Below, in pieces: positions 1,616-64,000 of a stretch of 64,000 nt of DNA. The stretch is from a virus. The notes beneath the pieces were generated by a model. It was given only the letters and a program-made list of their open reading frames with translations. It was not told the DNA's origin and ran no database searches. Position numbers and translations under genes: made by a program. Positions within the stretch are counted from its first letter, which is position 1; every line of letters begins with the position of its first letter. The stretch is from positions 1 through 64,000 of IMG/VR virus record IMGVR_UViG_3300020182_000023; one strand, given 5' to 3'.

Positions 1616-1627
1616 ATTTTTACGTTA

Positions 1628-2041
1628 ATCTGGTTAAATACCTCCATCTGTAATTGCCCAACCTTTTCCAACTAAACTTGCCCTTGCTGTTGAACTTGCT
1701 GCCGTATATTTAGCCGTTCCAAAACTTATAGTTATTGGAGTTTGGACTGGTCTAGAATCCCAACCATTATAGATAGCATCTAGGTTTGTTGAGCTAAAGG
1801 TAGAAGGAGTTTTAGTGCCCATAAAATTTACAAAATCCGTGACATTCGAAACATTCCAACTTCCTAAATTTTGGTCAAATGCTGGTGCATTATCAAACAT
1901 CCAAAACATATTAGTAACGCTACTTACATCCCACCCACCTATATTACTGTTGAAATTATTGCAACGGCGAAACATTTGACTCATATTTAACGCACTTGTA
2001 GGAGTCCAACTTGATATATTACCATTGAAATTAGTACATTG
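1628..2041. repeat. Copy 1 of a duplicated fibre 3' end (at least 414 bp)
   Basis: Matches 63587..64000 with 5 mismatches by manual alignment. Confidence 0.95.
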
Positions 2042-3902: not shown

Positions 3903-4307
3903 CTACGCTATTTTTACCTTATAAACCGCTGCGTTTGCTTCAAACTTAACCTCATCTCCCGTTGTGATTGTTTTAGATGATGTTAATGTATCGTATGATA
4001 AAAGGTTTCCACCCGTTGCAGCGTCATATATAGCAGCATAATCTGCTGTTGCTCCTGCTGATGCACTTAATGTTATAGTTATATCTGATATGTTGTCTGC
4101 TTGGCGGAAGGTACCGCTAGTAGTAACACCACCCAAAGCAATTGCATCTCTAGTTGTTGAACCTTTTATTGTGTTTGTTATTTCTGTACCCGCTCCCGAT
4201 GGGTCGCCATTGAATAAGGCGATGTACACTGTTGTTGGCGCTGTGGGCATATCAGTTCCCTTTACCCAATCAATTAATTCGTCTGCTAAATATTGTGAAA
4301 ATGGCAT
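3903..4307 (-). CDS. Tail-fibre-associated structural protein
   Basis: APTTVYIALF..DP..G.EI and AIYDAATGGNLL motifs of a common phage virion family. Confidence 0.7.
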   Translation of the reverse strand: MPFSQYLADELIDWVKGTDMPTAPTTVYIALFNGDPSGAGTEITNTIKGSTTRDAIALGGVTTSGTFRQADNISDITITLSASAGATADYAAIYDAATGGNLLSYDTLTSSKTITTGDEVKFEANAAVYKVKIA

Positions 4308-36779: not shown

Positions 36780-36998
36780 ATGGAATTTTCACTATTTTTA
36801 AACAACGGAGAACAAATAAATATAAACACAGAAGATTATACAGACCCTACTAGAACGGTTATGGAATACCTTATATCAATGCTAGAATATTATGAAACAG
36901 AATTATCCTTCTGTGATGAAGAAAATGAATTACTGTATCAGCAAGTGGAATATTGTAAACTACTTACTGATTTGTTGAAGCCAGAGATAAAGAATTAA
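36780..36998 (+). CDS. Acidic hypothetical protein
   Basis: ATG 4 nt after TATATTTG; stop codon is the TAA of the following TAAC. Confidence 0.6.
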   Translation: MEFSLFLNNGEQININTEDYTDPTRTVMEYLISMLEYYETELSFCDEENELLYQQVEYCKLLTDLLKPEIKN

Positions 36999-37041
36999 CA
37001 CCAAGCTAAGAAGCGTTTTAATGCTTTCTTAGCGGCTGTTA
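36996..37041 (+). repeat. attC-like palindrome, short type
   Basis: TAAC-ACC-AA-GCTAAG-AAGCGTT-TT-AATGCTT-T-CTTAGC-GGCT-GTTA. Confidence 0.75.
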
Positions 37042-37114
37042 TGCAACGTTTTAATGTTGCAATTTTTAACCCTTATTAACATTAACCAATAGATAATATT
37101 AATACATTTGAATT

Positions 37115-37546
37115 ATGATACAAATAGATAATATAGAAATAGACCCCACTGCATTAGTAGTGTTAGGAGGGTTTGCATTAGGGATGATTATAGCCCCTTT
37201 TGATTCCGCATTAATAAAAAGAGAATACAGGCTAGAATGGCTGTATCACACAGCTAAGTTTATGCTTATGTTCTTGTTAGGTGGTGCGTTATTACACCAC
37301 GTTCTACCTAAAGATGGATACTTCGTTCCAAGACTTATAGCTTGCTCATTATCATACAGCATTTCCTTTGACTTGTTTTTAAACTTTTTAAGAGGCAAGG
37401 AGATATTTTACATAGGACAAACTGCTTTTCTTGATAAGATGGCTAGAAAGTACCTTAAAACGGGTTTAAACTATATTTTCGTAAGGTTATTAGCTGTGTT
37501 TTTGATTGGAGTAGGAATAGTAATACATATTTTATTAAATAATTAA
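37115..37546 (+). CDS. Multi-pass membrane protein
   Basis: Four hydrophobic segments; FD..LN..RG..FYIG.TA..D motif. Confidence 0.65.
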   Translation: MIQIDNIEIDPTALVVLGGFALGMIIAPFDSALIKREYRLEWLYHTAKFMLMFLLGGALLHHVLPKDGYFVPRLIACSLSYSISFDLFLNFLRGKEIFYIGQTAFLDKMARKYLKTGLNYIFVRLLAVFLIGVGIVIHILLNN

Positions 37547-37549
37547 GAT

Positions 37550-37735
37550 ATGAATACAACTAAAATAACATATGAGGGTTACGGTAAGAAAATTTCCGTT
37601 GAATTAGACCACGAAGATGTATCTATACAAGAAGTATTAGACGCTGTTGTTTCAATGCTTTACGGAAGTGGATTTCATAAGCAGACAGTAGATAACGGAA
37701 TAATAGAATTAGCAGAAGAATTAAACGATAAATAA
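37550..37735 (+). CDS. Hypothetical protein
   Basis: ORF, plausible phage small protein. Confidence 0.6.
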   Translation: MNTTKITYEGYGKKISVELDHEDVSIQEVLDAVVSMLYGSGFHKQTVDNGIIELAEELNDK

Positions 37736-37744
37736 TTAAATAGA

Positions 37745-37945
37745 ATGGATAAGAGATACATTATAGAAGATTTAGGCTTAAAGAAAGCTAAGGATTACAA
37801 GGGAGAGGTTTATTTTTACCCTGACGAAGAAGATTTTGTTGGGTTCTTTATAGAATCAGAAGATAAAACTCACTTTGTGTTTATACCGTCAGAGCCAATA
37901 GACAGCTTATCAAGTAAAACGGCTTTTGAAAGAATATTTAAGTAG
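37745..37945 (+). CDS. Hypothetical protein
   Basis: ORF track. Confidence 0.55.
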   Translation: MDKRYIIEDLGLKKAKDYKGEVYFYPDEEDFVGFFIESEDKTHFVFIPSEPIDSLSSKTAFERIFK

Positions 37946-38063
37946 ATATGAAAGATATGGTTTTATTGGTACTGTTAGCTGTATGTATAGTTGAATACAG
38001 AGAAAGACCTAGAATAGACTTCTGAGGGAATGTTTATTTGTGGTACGGTAGATATAATCGTAA

Positions 38064-38714
38064 ATGTATAAATATATTATAATGGAATATAAGATAGAAA
38101 AACAAGCTAAAGGCACTCGAATACTTTTCGGGGATGAGGTAAGAGATAGATACACGCTATTAAATAAAATGATAGCTACCGTTGAGTCTTACGGGTTTCA
38201 AGGAATACAACTGCCTAGCATAGAGCCGTCTGAAATATACATAGACAAAGCAGGGAGAGAAGTGCTTAATCAAATGTGGGTGTTTCCAGATAAAAAAGGA
38301 AGGAATGTATGCTTACGCCCAGAGGCAACGGCTACCGTTCAGCTAATCGCTAATCATTTCTGGCAAGCTAAAAAAGAAATAAGAGTTTGGTATTTTGAGA
38401 AATGCTGGAGATACGAAAAACCGCAAAGGGGCAGATACAGAGAATTTTGGCAGTTCGGTTGCGAAGTAATAAACCCATCTACTGATTTAATAAAAGAAGA
38501 ATTAATAGACATATCTAAAGAACTTTGTGAACTTCAAACAAAGGATATAACGATAGATTATTCCGTAACAAGGGGATTGGGCTATTATACAGATAAAGGC
38601 TTTGAATTACGCTGTAAGCAACTAGGAGCGCAAGAACAGATATGCGGAGGTGGTTCTTATGATAGAGGAATTGGGTTTGCCATTGGGTTTGATAGATTAA
38701 TGCTTTGTAAATAA
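38064..38714 (+). CDS. Histidyl-tRNA synthetase-like protein, catalytic core only
   Basis: KGTR, LRPE.T, motif 2 RYEKPQRGRYREFWQ, RGLGYY, GGGSYD, motif 3 GFAIGFDRL then stop; likely start 38082. Confidence 0.85.
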   Translation: MYKYIIMEYKIEKQAKGTRILFGDEVRDRYTLLNKMIATVESYGFQGIQLPSIEPSEIYIDKAGREVLNQMWVFPDKKGRNVCLRPEATATVQLIANHFWQAKKEIRVWYFEKCWRYEKPQRGRYREFWQFGCEVINPSTDLIKEELIDISKELCELQTKDITIDYSVTRGLGYYTDKGFELRCKQLGAQEQICGGGSYDRGIGFAIGFDRLMLCK

Positions 38715-38720
38715 ATAATT

Positions 38721-38951
38721 ATGAAAACAAAATTGATTAGAAACAGTACGCTCCAAGACTTAATGGATGCTGCGGAGTATTCTTCTTACTCAGAAACACT
38801 AGAAGGTGTTAAACGGGCTAAAATAGGCTTAGATATATACGAGAAAGTAAAGGGTGGCTGGAAGCAAATCAGCGATTCGGGTATTATACCTAAGAAGTGT
38901 AACGTTATATCTCTTGATGCTAATGGCGCAAGCAGAATGAAGCGGAGGTAA
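38721..38951 (+). CDS. Hypothetical protein
   Basis: ORF ending in the TAAC of an attC-like site. Confidence 0.55.
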   Translation: MKTKLIRNSTLQDLMDAAEYSSYSETLEGVKRAKIGLDIYEKVKGGWKQISDSGIIPKKCNVISLDANGASRMKRR

Positions 38952-39043
38952 CGGTTTGTGTATGAGTAGTGTGGCTTTGCTCTTATTTTCAACTTACAGA
39001 TAAACTTATTTAGCCACATTACTTATACACTTTTTTATAGGTA
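38949..39043 (+). repeat. attC-like palindrome, long type (right GTT mutated to TTT)
   Basis: TAAC; arms GTGTATGAGTAGTGTGGCT / AGCCACATTACTTATACAC (17 Watson-Crick + 2 G:T). Confidence 0.7.
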
Positions 39044-39060
39044 TGTAAAATTTACGGAAT

Positions 39061-39207
39061 ATGAATAAAGAAAATAATTATTGGAAAGGAATAATGGTTG
39101 GATTTGCAGTAAGCACAATTGTTTGGTGTACTTTATGGGCATTTGTTATTGGAAAAATAGATAAGGTTCACAAACAAGAACTTGATTATATAATAGAAAA
39201 ACACTAA
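39061..39207 (+). CDS. 48-aa single-TM cassette protein
   Basis: Manual translation MNKENNYWKGIMVGFAVSTIVWCTLWAFVIG..; fills the space between two attC-like sites. Confidence 0.6.
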   Translation: MNKENNYWKGIMVGFAVSTIVWCTLWAFVIGKIDKVHKQELDYIIEKH

Positions 39208-39236
39208 ACAAAGTAGGTAGTAAATTTTATTACCTA

Positions 39237-39283
39237 TAACACCCGTCTAAGAAACGCTTTAATGTTTCTTTTGGCGGCTGTTA
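39237..39283 (+). repeat. attC-like palindrome, short type
   Basis: TAAC-ACCCGTCTAAGAAAC..GTTTCTTTTGGCGGCT-GTTA; homologous to 36996. Confidence 0.7.
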
Positions 39284-39350: not shown

Positions 39351-39725
39351 ATGAAACTACACAAAGACATATTATACTCCGTAGGAGATGAAATTGAGAT
39401 AGATAACATTAAATACACCATAGAACTCGCAGGATGGGGTAAAATACGACTACATAAGAAATGCTGTGGTGATATGTCCGCTGCCAAAGAAGTAGATGAC
39501 GTAACAGCTATACGGGGCTTAGATATAATAATAGCACTTAATGAAGAAGGTGCTACTGAAGAGGTAGAGGAAATTAAAAATAACTTAGAATGTCATTTTA
39601 ATGAAATTGAGTGTAAATTTAAATCTGAAGAATCTAACCTTAATGACAAAATCCGCATATTAGAAGCGCAGAATAAAGATTTAAAGAATGAACTAGAGGA
39701 TGATAAGTCTTGGTGGATATGGTAG
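39351..39725 (+). CDS. Hypothetical coiled-coil protein
   Basis: ORF track. Confidence 0.55.
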   Translation: MKLHKDILYSVGDEIEIDNIKYTIELAGWGKIRLHKKCCGDMSAAKEVDDVTAIRGLDIIIALNEEGATEEVEEIKNNLECHFNEIECKFKSEESNLNDKIRILEAQNKDLKNELEDDKSWWIW

Positions 39726-46482: not shown

Positions 46483-46605
46483 AAACATTTAACAGACTAA
46501 GCATATTAACATTTATTATTTTGGTAGGTGGATTTATTGCAATAAGTTTGTGTTTGTTATAACGTTGAGTGTAGTGCGGATTATTAACAAATAAATTTAA
46601 TTGAA

Positions 46606-46891: not shown

Positions 46892-46981
46892 AAACGGGTA
46901 GGTATATGATTAGTGTGCGATTGCACTAACCTTTGAATTAAAACAAATATTAACTAAGCACATTAACTATATACATTGTTA
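46892..46981 (+). repeat. attC-like palindrome, long type
   Basis: AAAC; arms GTATATGATTAGTGTGC / GCACATTAACTATATAC; ATT-GTTA. Confidence 0.75.
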
Positions 46982-47004
46982 GGGTGCGTTTAAATTAAAT
47001 TATT

Positions 47005-47208
47005 ATGACTTACGAAGACTTTTTATTCTCACAATTATTTATGAACCACGTTGAGAATAACGAAACACAATATCAAGAACTTGAATATGACTTGATATTC
47101 CCCGAAGTATTAAAGCACCAAAATCTATTCTTAAAATCTAATTACAATTTAGACGTTTGTAGCGAATACGATTGCATAGTAAACTACCTTCTTAATGAAG
47201 TGAAGTAA
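47005..47208 (+). CDS. Acidic cassette protein
   Basis: ORF bounded by GTTAGGGT and ACCCTAAC. Confidence 0.7.
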   Translation: MTYEDFLFSQLFMNHVENNETQYQELEYDLIFPEVLKHQNLFLKSNYNLDVCSEYDCIVNYLLNEVK

Positions 47209-47215
47209 TGAACCC

Positions 47216-47303
47216 TAACGTTTAGTATAAGATTAGTGCGCTAAACTATAAACTTTGAATTAAGCACTAACATAACCAAGCGCATTAATTTTATACATTG
47301 TTA
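47216..47303 (+). repeat. attC-like palindrome, long type
   Basis: TAAC; arms GTATAAGATTAGTGCGCT / AGCGCATTAATTTTATAC; ATT-GTTA; homologous to 46892. Confidence 0.8.
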
Positions 47304-47324
47304 TGCGCTTTTAATTAAATTATT

Positions 47325-47510
47325 ATGGACTACAAATTAATTGACAACATTGAAGTAGATGGAATAGACACTAAAGACTATCCAGATTTTTGTGACGCAT
47401 TTATAGCAAGTGCGAAATATAATGGAAAACCAATGACTGACGAGCAATTAGATGAATTAAATGAGGATGGCGGATTTGTTTATAAATGTGTGGAAAATCA
47501 TTTGTTCTAA
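47325..47510 (+). CDS. Acidic cassette protein
   Basis: GID..DYPDFCDAFI..A..G..MTDEQLD family; bounded by GTTATGCGC and GCGCATAAC. Confidence 0.75.
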   Translation: MDYKLIDNIEVDGIDTKDYPDFCDAFIASAKYNGKPMTDEQLDELNEDGGFVYKCVENHLF

Positions 47511-47517
47511 TTGCGCA

Positions 47518-47604
47518 TAACACCAAGCTAAGAAACGTAAAGCGCAGCACAATGTTTAATCTTAGCACAATACTATATTGCTTTATGGTGTATAGGTTGT
47601 GTTA
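47518..47604 (+). repeat. attC-like palindrome, hybrid
   Basis: First 27 nt identical to the 54107 element; ends GTGTTA. Confidence 0.65.
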
Positions 47605-53163: not shown

Positions 53164-53343
53164 ATGAAAGAAGAAATAGAAAGTAAACTATCCCCGCAAC
53201 AGATGGTAGTAATAGACTCTTTAAGAGAGCAATTAGGAGATGACACAGTTAATATACTCCTAGAGTTTGGTTATGAAATAGGTAAGGCAGATGGAGTAGA
53301 GATGTTCTTTCAGCAGACTAAAGATATTTTAAAGGAAGCATAA
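53164..53343 (+). CDS. Hypothetical protein (59 aa)
   Basis: Manual ORF MKEEIESKLS..; stop is the TAA of TAAC. Confidence 0.6.
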   Translation: MKEEIESKLSPQQMVVIDSLREQLGDDTVNILLEFGYEIGKADGVEMFFQQTKDILKEA

Positions 53344-53441
53344 CGTTGAGTATAAACGGTCGTTACGGATGTGTAGATATGTTTCACAACGTTTAGAGTA
53401 AAAACTGCATAGCGTAGCGGAGTTGTTTTTAAACTTTGTTA
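53341..53441 (+). repeat. Two adjacent attC-like sites (truncated 53341-53365; fuller 53387-53441)
   Basis: TAACGTTGAGT start shared with 46560; CAAC..AGAGTAAAAAC..GCGTAGC..GTTTTT..ACTTT-GTTA. Confidence 0.6.
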
Positions 53442-53463
53442 TGCGTTGCGTAAAATTAAGATT

Positions 53464-53691
53464 ATGACACCAAAAGAAAAAGCAAAAGAATTACAGAATA
53501 AACACCTTTACTGCTATTTAAACCCTGCTTACCCATTACACGATAGATTTGATGTTATTCAAGCGTCTGAGCAAGCATTGGTAACAGTAAATGAAATACT
53601 TGAAAGTTTTTTAATAGATATTCCAGACCACCAATTTAAGTTTTGGGAAGAAGTTAAGAGCGAATTAAACACCATAATATTAGGAGAATGA
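53464..53691 (+). CDS. Hypothetical protein (MTPKEKA family)
   Basis: MTPKEKAKEL..AL..V.EI..FW.EVK.E pattern common in Bacteroidota phages. Confidence 0.7.
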   Translation: MTPKEKAKELQNKHLYCYLNPAYPLHDRFDVIQASEQALVTVNEILESFLIDIPDHQFKFWEEVKSELNTIILGE

Positions 53692-53935
53692 AAACACCAC
53701 TACAGGAATTAATGGAGTATATGGAGCAAAACCAATATTTCATAGGAATGATTTATTGGCTAAGTATAATGAACTTATTGAAAAAGAGAAACAAGAGTTT
53801 ATAAGTTGTTATATTAGAGCTATGACAAAAGAATATCTAAACCCTATGCCGAGAAAATATTATTATGAAGTTGCCGAAGATTATTATTATACTTTTATTA
53901 ACCCATTAGGCAAAAATGAGAAATCCTATAAATAG
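53688..53935 (+). pseudogene. Frameshifted small gene
   Basis: MKTPLQELMEY..FIG continues in another frame as DLLAKYNELIEKEKQ..AEDYY. Confidence 0.5.
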
Positions 53936-53970
53936 CCACTAAACGGTAATTAGTGGCAAAATATAGAACT

Positions 53971-54099
53971 ATGAAAAAGAAACTAATTGAGATACCCGAA
54001 GAAGTATTTAATCAAATAGAATTATCCGCAAAAAAGAATGTAAGGAGTGTAAATAAAGAGATAGTGTTTCTTCTTACGAGTGCGGTGGGTAAAAAATAA
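53971..54099 (+). CDS. Arc-like ribbon-helix-helix protein (42 aa)
   Basis: Manual: MKKKLIEIPEEVFNQIELSAKKNVRSVNKEIVFLL; P.E..A..N.RS.N.EI pattern. Confidence 0.75.
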   Translation: MKKKLIEIPEEVFNQIELSAKKNVRSVNKEIVFLLTSAVGKK

Positions 54100-54106
54100 T
54101 TGCATA

Positions 54107-54160
54107 TAACACCAAGCTAAGAAACGTAAAGCGAAGCGTATGTTTCCTTAGCGACTGTTA
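54107..54160 (+). repeat. attC-like palindrome, short type
   Basis: TAAC-ACCAA-GCTAAG-AAAC..GCGAAGC..GTTT-C-CTTAGC-GACT-GTTA. Confidence 0.75.
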
Positions 54161-54203
54161 ACGCACGTTTTAATGTGCGGAATATTAAAAACTTAAAAAT
54201 ACA

Positions 54204-63394: not shown

Positions 63395-63592
63395 AGTCTC
63401 CTTTTAATTTAAAATGAACCAATCACTACTTAATGACTGAGTTTCTTTTAGCCTATCTGATGAATAGCTAAAATGTTTAATAATATAATACTTATTTTCT
63501 GTAGGATGTTTTGTTGGGTTACTCCAATTATCACCTTTAAAGTAACCTTCTGATAAAGGTACGGTTTCATCATAATCTTTACATTCATCTGG

Positions 63593-64000
63593 TTAAATAC
63601 CCCCATCTGTAATTGCCCAACCTTTTCCAACTAAACTTGCCCTTGCTGTTGAACTTGCTGCCGTATATTTAGCCGTTCCAAAACTTATATTTATTGGAGT
63701 TTGGACTGGTCTAGAATCCCAACCATTATAGATAGCATCTAGGTTAGCTGCGCTAAAGGTAGAAGGAGTTTTAGTGCCCATAAAATTTACAAAATCCGTG
63801 ACATTCGAAACATTCCAACTTCCTAAATTTTGGTCAAATGCTGGTGCATTATCAAACATCCAAAACATATTAGTAACGCTACTTACATCCCACCCACCTA
63901 TATTACTGTTGAAATTATTGCAACGGCGAAACATTTGACTCATATTTAACGCACTTGTAGGAGTCCAACTTGATATATTACCATTGAAATTAGTACATTG
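63593..64000 (-). CDS. Second BspA/DUF285 fibre gene, 3' part (partial)
   Basis: 409/414 nt identical to the end of 1634..3901; frame open to the window edge. Confidence 0.85.
   Translation of the reverse strand, partial: QCTNFNGNISSWTPTSALNMSQMFRRCNNFNSNIGGWDVSSVTNMFWMFDNAPAFDQNLGSWNVSNVTDFVNFMGTKTPSTFSAANLDAIYNGWDSRPVQTPINISFGTAKYTAASSTARASLVGKGWAITDGGI

What the first reader, a model, noticed from the sequence alone, without database searches (positions are those of the whole stretch)
36996..39283. Second cluster of attC-like sites, with a single-gene cassette and a block containing the mini-HisRS
Seen: three sites (36996, 38949, 39237). The 48-aa TM ORF 39061..39207 is bounded by TTATAGGTATGTAAAATTT (39035) and AAATTTTATTACCTATAAC (39222-39240), a roughly 19-bp inverted pair whose left G of GTT is mutated to T, which might lock the cassette in place. 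In 36996 and 38949 the TAA of TAAC is the stop codon of the upstream gene, as in many integron cassettes. The multi-gene block 37115-38951 lies between two sites but its ends are not complementary, so it is at most an eroded or fused cassette.
Basis: partly seen in the sequence, partly recalled or inferred. Interest (0 to 1): 0.7.

Follow-up and report, generated by a model that had tools for sequence, protein, structure and literature searches.

The report
Phage hairpin-bounded mobile gene cassette
A tiny phage gene and the DNA hairpin in front of it form a 288-base unit that is present, absent or placed among other neighbours in related marine phages, always cut at the same four letters, which points to an integron-like gene-swapping system in phages of Bacteroidota.

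Summary
The three sites exist. 36996 and 39237 are copies of one 45-nt hairpin (hp1). 38949 is a second, ~87-nt type (hp2) found in over 100 viral and metagenome contigs.

The unit is 38953-39240: the upstream hairpin, GTT-x, the ORF and x'-TAAC. One relative lacks exactly this unit (TAAC junction). Two unrelated contigs carry exactly 38949-39240 among other neighbours. Both forms occur together in marine metagenomes.

Family-wide, the bases after GTT pair with those before the next AAC (74% against 6% permuted). The letter beside the core agrees in 34 of 34 cassettes. All four hairpin indels break at the AAC foot on the sense strand. This is integron logic with reversed polarity.

No recombinase lies in this record. 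In 45 related loci with full flanks, such hairpins pile up just upstream of a short Xer-like recombinase that lacks the IntI insert.

The block 37115-38951 is backbone, not a cassette.

One family member (P12002L_attC1) was called an attC in Qi et al. 2023 and was not recombined by IntI1. Earlier notes of this scan describe similar arrays on other phage DNA.

The parts
36996..37041 (+). hp1-type hairpin site S1. TAAC (36996-36999, which holds the stop codon of ORF 36780..36998), a stem, the loop GTTTTAAT, a stem, then GTTA.
   Evidence: In relatives G002 and G003 and in three metagenome runs, everything right of TAAC (36999) is replaced by a short different hairpin.
37042..37067 (+). Small second hairpin (TGCAAC, loop GTTTTAAT, GTTGCA) followed by a run of T. 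It looks like a terminator, or like an 'empty' x/x' stem.
   Evidence: (terminator-like scan). The same arrangement follows the hp1 copy at 54161-54179.
37115..38951 (+). Multi-gene backbone block: ORFs 37115..37546, 37550..37735, 37745..37945, the mini-HisRS at 38082..38714 (the ORF list starts it at 38064) and 38721..38951. It is not a cassette.
   Evidence: The ends are not complementary. Gene-level differences inside it do not lie at hairpins: 37117-37536 is replaced in G003, and contigs join 37162 to 37559 and 38071 to 38720. Pfam tRNA-synt_His matches with E 1.9e-27.
38949..39037 (+). hp2-type hairpin site S2: TAAC (the stop of ORF 38721..38951), 19-nt arms at 38958-38976 and 39012-39030, then the right foot TTTA (39034-39037), where relatives read GTTA.
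   Evidence: G at this place in L202-L205.
38953..39240 (+). The mobile unit (288 nt): the hairpin of S2, the right foot, x, ORF48, x' and TAAC. The limits are uncertain by the 4 shared letters TAAC.
   Evidence: Absent from G001, which has a clean TAAC junction. Contigs of runs X3 and X17 skip 288 nt (38948 to 39237) while the same runs also hold the insert. In L202 and L203 the homology runs exactly 38949-39240, with unrelated DNA on both sides.
39038..39053 (+). x: the start of the cassette body (TAGGTATGTAAAATTT), complementary to x'.
39061..39207 (+). ORF48, a 48-aa protein with one predicted membrane helix. Function unknown.
   Evidence: Relatives at 90-100% identity lie in 5 viral contigs.
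39222..39240 (+). x' plus the TAAC core (AAATTTTATTACCTA + TAAC), the end of the unit.
39237..39283 (+). hp1-type hairpin site S3, the target site that stays when the unit is absent. It stays linked to the downstream gene 39351..39725.
46892..47604 (+). Other family sites in the window: 46892-46981 and 47216-47303 (hp2), and 47518-47604 (hp1 left half). They bound the cassettes ORF 47005..47208 and ORF 47325..47510.
53341..54160 (+). Further sites 53341-53447 and 54107-54160. The stretch 53345-54104 is missing from relative G002, again with a TAAC junction.

Best explanation
The sites belong to a family of folding recombination sites. Each has an AAC foot, an imperfect hairpin and a GTT foot, and together they divide the early-gene arm of this marine Bacteroidota phage into cassettes.

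A cassette is [hairpin, GTT, x, short leader, ORF, stop, x', AAC]. Exchange takes place in the AAC foot at the 5' end of the hairpin on the sense strand, between two such sites. In an excised circle, x'-AAC and GTT-x would pair and lengthen the cassette's own hairpin.

This is integron logic, with single-strand folding and cassette ends that complement each other. The difference is polarity: the hairpin lies upstream of its gene. On this reading the sense strand plays the part of the attC 'bottom' strand.

What is shown:
- the unit limits,
- the presence/absence forms and the change of neighbours,
- the end covariation,
- the strand asymmetry.

What is inferred:
- the enzyme is a tyrosine recombinase of the Xer/IntI clade,
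- in this phage, which has none, it is supplied in trans by a co-infecting phage or the host, or the array is a relic,
- the hairpins are also transcribed and may act on the RNA.
For: 1. Unit limits. G001 lacks 38953-39236 and has a TAAC junction. Contigs of two metagenome runs from different studies join 38948 to 39237, while the same runs also hold the insert. L202 and L203 share only 38949-39240 with the window (292 nt, 92%), and the flanks are unrelated.

2. Breakpoints. All 4 hairpin-linked indels found among 153 loci break at the AAC foot on both sides: 288, 760, 1821 and 142 nt.

3. End covariation. For 50 hp2 sites, the reverse complement of the 7 nt after GTT lies next to an AAC 60-700 nt downstream at 6 of 7 or better in 74%, against 6% when permuted. 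The letter after GTT and the letter before the next AAC agree in 34 of 34 cassettes (A/T 18, G/C 16). Within one site the same two positions combine nearly at random.

4. Linkage. The right flank follows the hairpin type: all 10 GTACGC-type hairpins aligned in A1 are followed by GTTGTACGC. The left flank does not follow it.

5. Folding of the sense strand. The hp2 alignment of 41 sequences gives 23 pairs, 7 of them with compensatory changes, and 3 near-invariant G:T wobbles. Of the hairpins upstream of recombinase genes, 173 fold better on the sense strand and 4 on the other.

6. Enzyme lead. A 263-271 aa Xer-like recombinase sits at the downstream end of such arrays in 4 of 4 records that have one. 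In 45 loci with full flanks, hairpins per kb rise 25, 30, 38, 44, 47 towards the gene. The gene bin holds 5, the bins after it 8, 12, 17 and 18, and shuffles give 1-11 per bin.

7. Cultured phages carry the same architecture: Gundel_1 and P12002L.
Against: - No tyrosine, serine or Y1 recombinase lies in the 78.7-kb record, which is estimated 74% complete. None lies in the complete genomes of Gundel_1 and P12002L either. The enzyme for this phage is therefore unknown.
- No excised circle or recombination event has been observed directly. Contigs show alternative forms, not a reaction.
- The link between recombinase and array could reflect shared placement at the end of an early or accessory region.
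- Hp1 sites fold about equally well on both strands.
- Some differences between relatives start inside a hairpin arm (L204/L205 at 39018; G002 at 46569/47274). Homologous or illegitimate recombination therefore also shapes these regions.
- Family member P12002L_attC1 gave no recombinants with IntI1.
Confidence: 0.7

Rival explanations
1. These are ordinary integron cassettes with true attC sites, picked up from bacterial integrons and moved by a bacterial IntI. On this reading the array is a CALIN (a cluster of attC sites lacking an integrase) in the sense of Qi et al. 2023.
For: The AAC...GTT cores, the imperfect palindrome with bulges and the complementary cassette ends are all present. HattCI called the family member P12002L_attC1 an attC. 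Hp1 resembles PH101_attC2, which IntI1 did recombine.
Against: - The polarity is reversed: the hairpin upstream of the ORF travels with it, and the breaks are at AAC, not at G|TT after the ORF.
- The hp1 motif gave 20 hits in the one-per-species bacterial and archaeal genome collection (596 billion bases). My own estimate for uniform base composition is about 35 chance hits. None of the 20 has the matching arm.
- P12002L_attC1 was the one site of six that IntI1 did not recombine.
- The recombinase found beside related arrays scores 158 bits or less against the integron-integrase model, whose cut-off is 265, and its match to IntI4 ends near residue 180.
Confidence: 0.07
2. The hairpins are regulatory elements (terminators, RNA stabilisers or processing sites), like the PeSL promoter-terminator cassettes of T4-type phages. 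On this reading the mosaicism comes from homologous recombination between repeated copies, helped by the phage's ERF annealing protein and PD-(D/E)XK nuclease.
For: - The sites are intergenic, lie on the sense strand and have conserved G:U-compatible wobbles.
- In Gundel_1, hp2 starts right after a TAnnTTTG promoter box, so it is probably transcribed.
- The phage encodes ERF, a DUF3127 protein (possibly SSB-like; my own inference, not tested) and a PD-(D/E)XK nuclease.
- Some breakpoints lie inside hairpin arms.
- PeSL shuffling and mini-circles are documented (PMC2839356, PMC4122927).
Against: - The 288-nt unit is flanked by unrelated hairpins (hp2 and hp1) that share only TAAC and GTTA, so there is no homology to recombine through.
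- Pairing across the ORF (x with x') instead of across the hairpin is not expected of a regulatory repeat.
- There is no TAnnTTTG box between hp2 and the ATG in the cassettes.
- The hairpins are strongly enriched next to a tyrosine recombinase.
Confidence: 0.13
3. The unit is a small transposable element. Either it is a MITE with a 4-bp TAAC (or TA) target duplication, or it is an IS200/IS605-type single-strand element that inserts 3' of TAAC.
For: One TAAC stands in the empty site and two flank the insert, which looks like a target duplication. Insertion 3' of a fixed tetranucleotide next to a hairpin recalls IS608; this comparison rests on my own knowledge.
Against: - The two ends of the insert are not inverted repeats of each other.
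- No Y1 transposase is present.
- There is one hairpin per unit, not two subterminal ones.
- In every case seen, the target is the foot of another hairpin of the family.
Confidence: 0.06

Closest known systems
Integrons, and clusters of attC sites lacking an integrase (CALINs) reported in virulent phages (Qi et al. 2023, PMC9892861)
   Same: - Folding sites with AAC/GTT cores stand between co-oriented small ORFs.
- Each cassette's two ends complement each other.
- No integrase is nearby.
- DNA methyltransferase genes occur as cargo in relatives.
- The paper's P12002L_attC1 is a member of this very hairpin family.
   Different: - The hairpin lies upstream of its ORF and moves with it.
- The exchange maps to the AAC foot on the sense strand.
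- The hp1 motif was not found as a hairpin in the bacterial genome collection.
- The tested member was not an IntI1 substrate.
- The recombinase found beside related arrays lacks the IntI insert and points the same way as the cassettes.
PeSL mobile regulatory cassettes of T4-type phages (PMC2839356, PMC4122927)
   Same: Repeated intergenic stem-loops in hyperplastic phage regions bound small accessory genes that differ between close relatives. Circular intermediates have been proposed.
   Different: PeSLs are homologous promoter-terminator repeats that recombine by homology. Here the flanking hairpins may be unrelated in sequence, the breaks sit at a 3-4 nt core, and the cassette ends covary.
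Xer-dependent elements: CTX phage, whose folded single strand mimics dif, and the pdif modules of Acinetobacter plasmids (from my own knowledge, not tested here)
   Same: A short Xer-type recombinase is involved, a folded single strand serves as substrate (CTX), and gene modules are bracketed by inverted half-sites (pdif). The consensus x'-TAAC (GCGCATAAC) shares GCGCATAA with the left arm of the dif-like motif seen in Bacteroidia genomes.
   Different: The sites are 45-90 nt hairpins, not 28-bp dif sites. The x/x' sequences vary freely, which argues against a fixed binding arm. No link to host dif was shown.

Membership tests
Integron attC site / gene cassette | An imperfect palindrome with ...AAC at the left end and GTT... 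at the right end, with unpaired or bulged bases between an outer and an inner stem | tested here: met
   The AAC:GTT pairs are invariant in 41 hp2 copies, and 2 to 5 unpaired bases follow the foot.
Integron attC site / gene cassette | The outer core of a site pairs with the start of its own cassette, not with the bases that follow the site in the array | tested here: met
   74% against 6% permuted; 34 of 34 across the cassette, and near-random within a site.
Integron attC site / gene cassette | The site lies downstream of its ORF and moves with it, with the crossover at G|TT at the 3' end of the site on the coding strand | tested here: not met
   The upstream hairpin moves with the ORF, and all four indels break at the 5' AAC foot.
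Integron attC site / gene cassette | Recombined by an integron integrase | not testable with these tools
   In published work the family member P12002L_attC1 gave no verified IntI1 x attI1 recombinants, while five other phage sites did.
Integron (complete) | An IntI integrase carrying the IntI-specific insert, next to the array | tested here: not met
   There is no PF00589 match in the record. The recombinases of relatives are 263-271 aa and score at most 158 bits on TIGR02249 (cut-off 265). The nearest solved structure is XerA, and the match to IntI4 stops near residue 180. The need for the insert is stated in PMC8138268.
CALIN (cluster of attC sites lacking an integrase) | Two or more attC sites called by IntegronFinder or HattCI within a few kb, with no intI | not tested
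   The layout fits (three sites in 2.3 kb and no integrase), but neither program could be run here.
PeSL regulatory cassette | A strong promoter joined to a terminator stem-loop, with exchange by homology between copies | tested here: not met
   The units are flanked by unrelated hairpins, and no TAnnTTTG box lies between hp2 and the ATG. Terminator activity was not tested.
IS200/IS605-type element | A Y1 (HUH) transposase and two subterminal hairpins | tested here: not met
   There is no PF01797 match, and each unit has one hairpin.

The most novel reading that the evidence does not exclude
Marine Bacteroidota phages may have their own counterpart of the integron. Small accessory genes would travel as 'hairpin-first' cassettes, exchanged on the folded sense strand at an AA|C foot by a short Xer-like recombinase that lacks the IntI insert and sits at the downstream end of the array. 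Phages without the gene, like this one, would then hold arrays that are served in trans during co-infection, or arrays that are frozen.
Probability: 0.5. Interest if true: 0.9.

Novelty: new variant of a known kind. Interest (0 to 1): 0.78.

Why it matters
- Phage mosaicism is usually put down to illegitimate or homology-driven recombination. A site-specific cassette system inside phage genomes would be a distinct and testable route by which small accessory genes (membrane peptides, methyltransferases and others) spread between phages.
- The system appears to use a plain Xer-type enzyme and the opposite cassette polarity. That bears on how integrons arose from Xer recombinases, and on whether the IntI insert is really needed for hairpin-site recombination.
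- Standard integron tools caught only one such site in a cultured phage, so the family is probably overlooked in viromes.

Tried and rejected
- Rfam scan of the whole window at E up to 1: no hit. No tRNA.
- blastn of 36.0-40.5 kb against deposited phages: no match.
- Sigma-70 promoter scan: no more sites than in shuffles, so uninformative for a Bacteroidota phage.
- My first two generic hairpin finders were too permissive. One gave 315 hits. The other gave 53 against 33-45 in shuffles. A stricter version gives 17 in the record against 3-15 in shuffles, so it is useful only for enrichment tests.
- The hp1 motif in the bacterial genome collection: 20 hits, about what chance gives by my own estimate, and none with a matching arm.
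- A dif-type reading of the sites. A Bacteroidia dif-like motif (GCnCATAATTTATATTATGTTAA) turned up. It shares only GCGCATAA with the consensus cassette end, and x/x' vary freely, so this stays inconclusive.
- Bacterial relatives of the recombinase are common: 167 of 301 Bacteroidia genomes at E 1e-40 or better. The 30 best loci show no hairpin enrichment within 1.5 kb, at 0.09 per kb upstream and 0.26 per kb downstream. The flanks were short and many of the genes sit at contig ends.
- Strand preference of hp1 folding: none seen.
- RNA runs held too little of the stretch to be laid.
Full report
**What the window is.** The window is bases 1-64000 of a 78,696-bp IMG/VR virus record, estimated 74% complete. 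It is AT-rich and has TAnnTTTG boxes just before many start codons, the promoter type of Bacteroidota (the promoter consensus is from my own knowledge). The plus-strand arm from 35 to 60 kb holds these genes:
- a primase-helicase-like gene,
- an ERF annealing protein,
- a DUF3127 protein,
- a PD-(D/E)XK nuclease,
- three HNH/NUMOD4 endonucleases,
- many small ORFs.

The nearest cultured phage that shares the hairpin element is Tenacibaculum phage Gundel_1, a 78.8-kb podovirus with no integrase.

**Check of the observation.**
- Sites 36996 and 39237 are two copies of one roughly 45-nt hairpin, here called hp1. A 34-nt pattern finds both, with none expected by chance. Two more copies lie at 47518 and 54107.
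- Site 38949 is a second type, hp2, with 19-nt arms.
- The inverted pair around ORF48 is real but is not exceptional on its own in this AT-rich DNA.
- The T at 39034 replaces a G that four related contigs keep.

**The family is large and lives in phages.**
- The hp1 left half occurs in 13 further stretches of viral contigs.
- In the bacterial and archaeal genome collection (one genome per species) it gave 20 hits. That is about the number I estimate from chance, and none has a matching arm.
- The hp2 right arm occurs in 19 more viral contigs, in Gundel_1, and in at least 120 metagenome stretches.
- An alignment of 41 different hp2 copies gives 23 consensus pairs. Seven of them show compensatory changes. 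Three G:T wobbles are nearly invariant, and on the other strand these would be C:A mismatches.

**The cassette is real, and its limits can be read from relatives.**
- Three related contigs were fetched and mapped. G001 goes from the stop codon TAAC of ORF 38721..38951 straight into the hp1 hairpin of site 39237. It therefore lacks 38953-39236 plus one TAAC.
- G003 has the unit.
- G002 has an unrelated 86-nt spacer there.
- In marine metagenomes from several years, contigs of runs X3 and X17 join 38948 to 39237 (skipping 288 nt) while the same runs also hold the insert. Run X6 has a contig that ends at 38952 and continues into hp1.
In L202 and L203 the similarity to the window runs exactly 38949-39240 (292 nt, 92%). 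To the left lies the end of another cassette, and to the right lies another hairpin.
- In L204 and L205 only 39018-39208 is shared, and no x'-TAAC follows.

The unit that moves is therefore hairpin plus ORF, 38953-39240. It is not ORF plus the downstream hairpin.

**The general rule.**
- For 50 independent hp2 sites, the reverse complement of the 7 nt after GTT is found against an AAC 60-700 nt downstream. It matches at 6 of 7 or better in 74% of cases, against 6% when queries are permuted. That AAC is nearly always followed by another hairpin.
- At least ten different sequence classes covary in this way.
- The letter next to the core agrees across the cassette in 34 of 34 cases (A with T 18 times, G with C 16 times). 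Within one site the same two positions combine almost at random.
- The hairpin type predicts the right flank but not the left flank.
- All four hairpin-linked indels found among 153 loci break at the AAC foot on both sides.

Together these results place the exchange inside the AAC foot at the 5' end of the hairpin on the sense strand. In an integron the cleaved strand is the bottom strand, cut at AA|C near its 5' end (from my own knowledge). On that basis the phage sense strand corresponds to the attC bottom strand, and the ORFs are inverted relative to classical cassettes.

**The other two sites of the finding.**
- Site 39237 is the target site that remains when the unit is absent. It stays linked to the downstream gene 39351..39725.
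- Site 36996 is itself variable. In G002, G003 and three metagenome runs, everything right of its TAAC is replaced by a short, different hairpin.
- The block 37115-38951 has no complementary ends. The differences inside it do not lie at hairpins. ORF 37115..37546 is replaced or shortened in G003 and in three runs. Some contigs of two runs join 38071 to 38720 and so appear to lack the mini-HisRS gene, although the tool could not tell whether other letters lie between. I read the block as backbone.

**Which enzyme.**
- The record has no tyrosine recombinase, serine recombinase or Y1 transposase.
- Four of 20 other hairpin-bearing records encode a 263-271 aa tyrosine recombinase with Phage_integrase and SAM_4 domains. 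It scores below the cut-offs of the XerA, XerC, XerD and integron-integrase models. Its nearest solved structure is archaeal XerA, and its match to IntI4 ends near residue 180.
- In all four records the gene follows a hairpin-cassette array on the same strand. One complete 78-kb genome has at least 11 cassettes in a row before it.
- Among 80 viral loci that encode relatives of this enzyme, AAC...GTT hairpins reach 0.81 per kb upstream and 0.24 per kb downstream.
- In the 45 loci with full flanks, counts per kb rise 25, 30, 38, 44, 47 towards the gene. The gene bin holds 5 and the bins after it hold 8, 12, 17 and 18. Shuffles give 1-11 per bin. Of the upstream hairpins, 173 fold better on the sense strand and 4 on the other.

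This is a strong association but not proof of function. Shared placement at the end of an accessory region could explain part of it.

**Bacterial relatives of the enzyme.** They are common in Bacteroidia. The 30 best loci show no hairpin enrichment within 1.5 kb.

**What was already known.** Qi et al. 2023 reported CALINs in phages, including Polaribacter phage P12002L. Their P12002L_attC1 primer sequence is a member of this family, of the type with the loop GTTTTAAT. It lies after a methyltransferase gene. It was the one site of six that gave no verified IntI1 recombinants. The paper describing Gundel_1 does not mention hairpins or cassettes. PeSL cassettes of T4-type phages are the nearest phage precedent, but they work by homology.

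**Earlier notes of this scan.** They describe integron-like arrays with Xer-type recombinases in other Bacteroidota phages. They also describe the neighbouring array of this genome. I tested the shared claims myself, as set out above.

**Verdict.**
- The cassette reading is right in kind but wrong in limits and polarity.
- The 'locked by mutation' idea is unsupported.
- The multi-gene block is backbone.
- The mechanism (site-specific exchange at the AAC foot of a folded sense strand) is well supported by comparison.
- The enzyme is inferred.

Noticed in passing
window 38071-38720: Contigs of two metagenome runs join 38071 to 38720, so some variants appear to lack the whole mini-HisRS gene (the tool could not tell whether other letters lie between). 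The junction lies in similar AT-rich leaders before two start codons, not at a hairpin.
   Followed up: partly
L202:1645-1800 (and L203): The hairpin downstream of the ORF48 unit in these contigs holds two stretches that look like tRNA T-arms (GGTTCGATTCC and GGTTCGACTCCCAC) between its arms.
   Followed up: no
window 1616-1915 and 63575-63874: A 300-nt direct repeat at 97% identity, 61,959 nt apart, inside minus-strand ORFs at the two ends of the window. It could mark duplicated tail-fibre-like genes or an assembly feature.
   Followed up: no
L199 (reverse strand 4208-4250) and L198:3800-3856: Just upstream of the Xer-like recombinase gene, two records share TAAC followed by TAYTATATAT with no hairpin. 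This might be a terminal, attI-like site.
   Followed up: no
window 47542, 53412, 54131; The hairpin loops carry GCGNAGC mini-hairpin motifs. The same GCGAAGC stands in the loop of the classical attC of aadA7, as printed in the supplement of Qi et al. 2023.
   Followed up: no
G062:C1:3998653-3998675 and about ten other Bacteroidia genomes: A single-copy motif GCnCATAATTTATATTATGTTAA recurs across Bacteroidia genomes. It is probably their dif site.
   Followed up: partly
window 37038-37061 and 54157-54179; L090, L105, L107, L126, L152: The loop GTTTTAAT recurs in many short hairpins of the family and in the small second hairpins after hp1. It reads like the two ends of a cassette body (GTTT... 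and ...TAAT) joined with no ORF between them.
   Followed up: no
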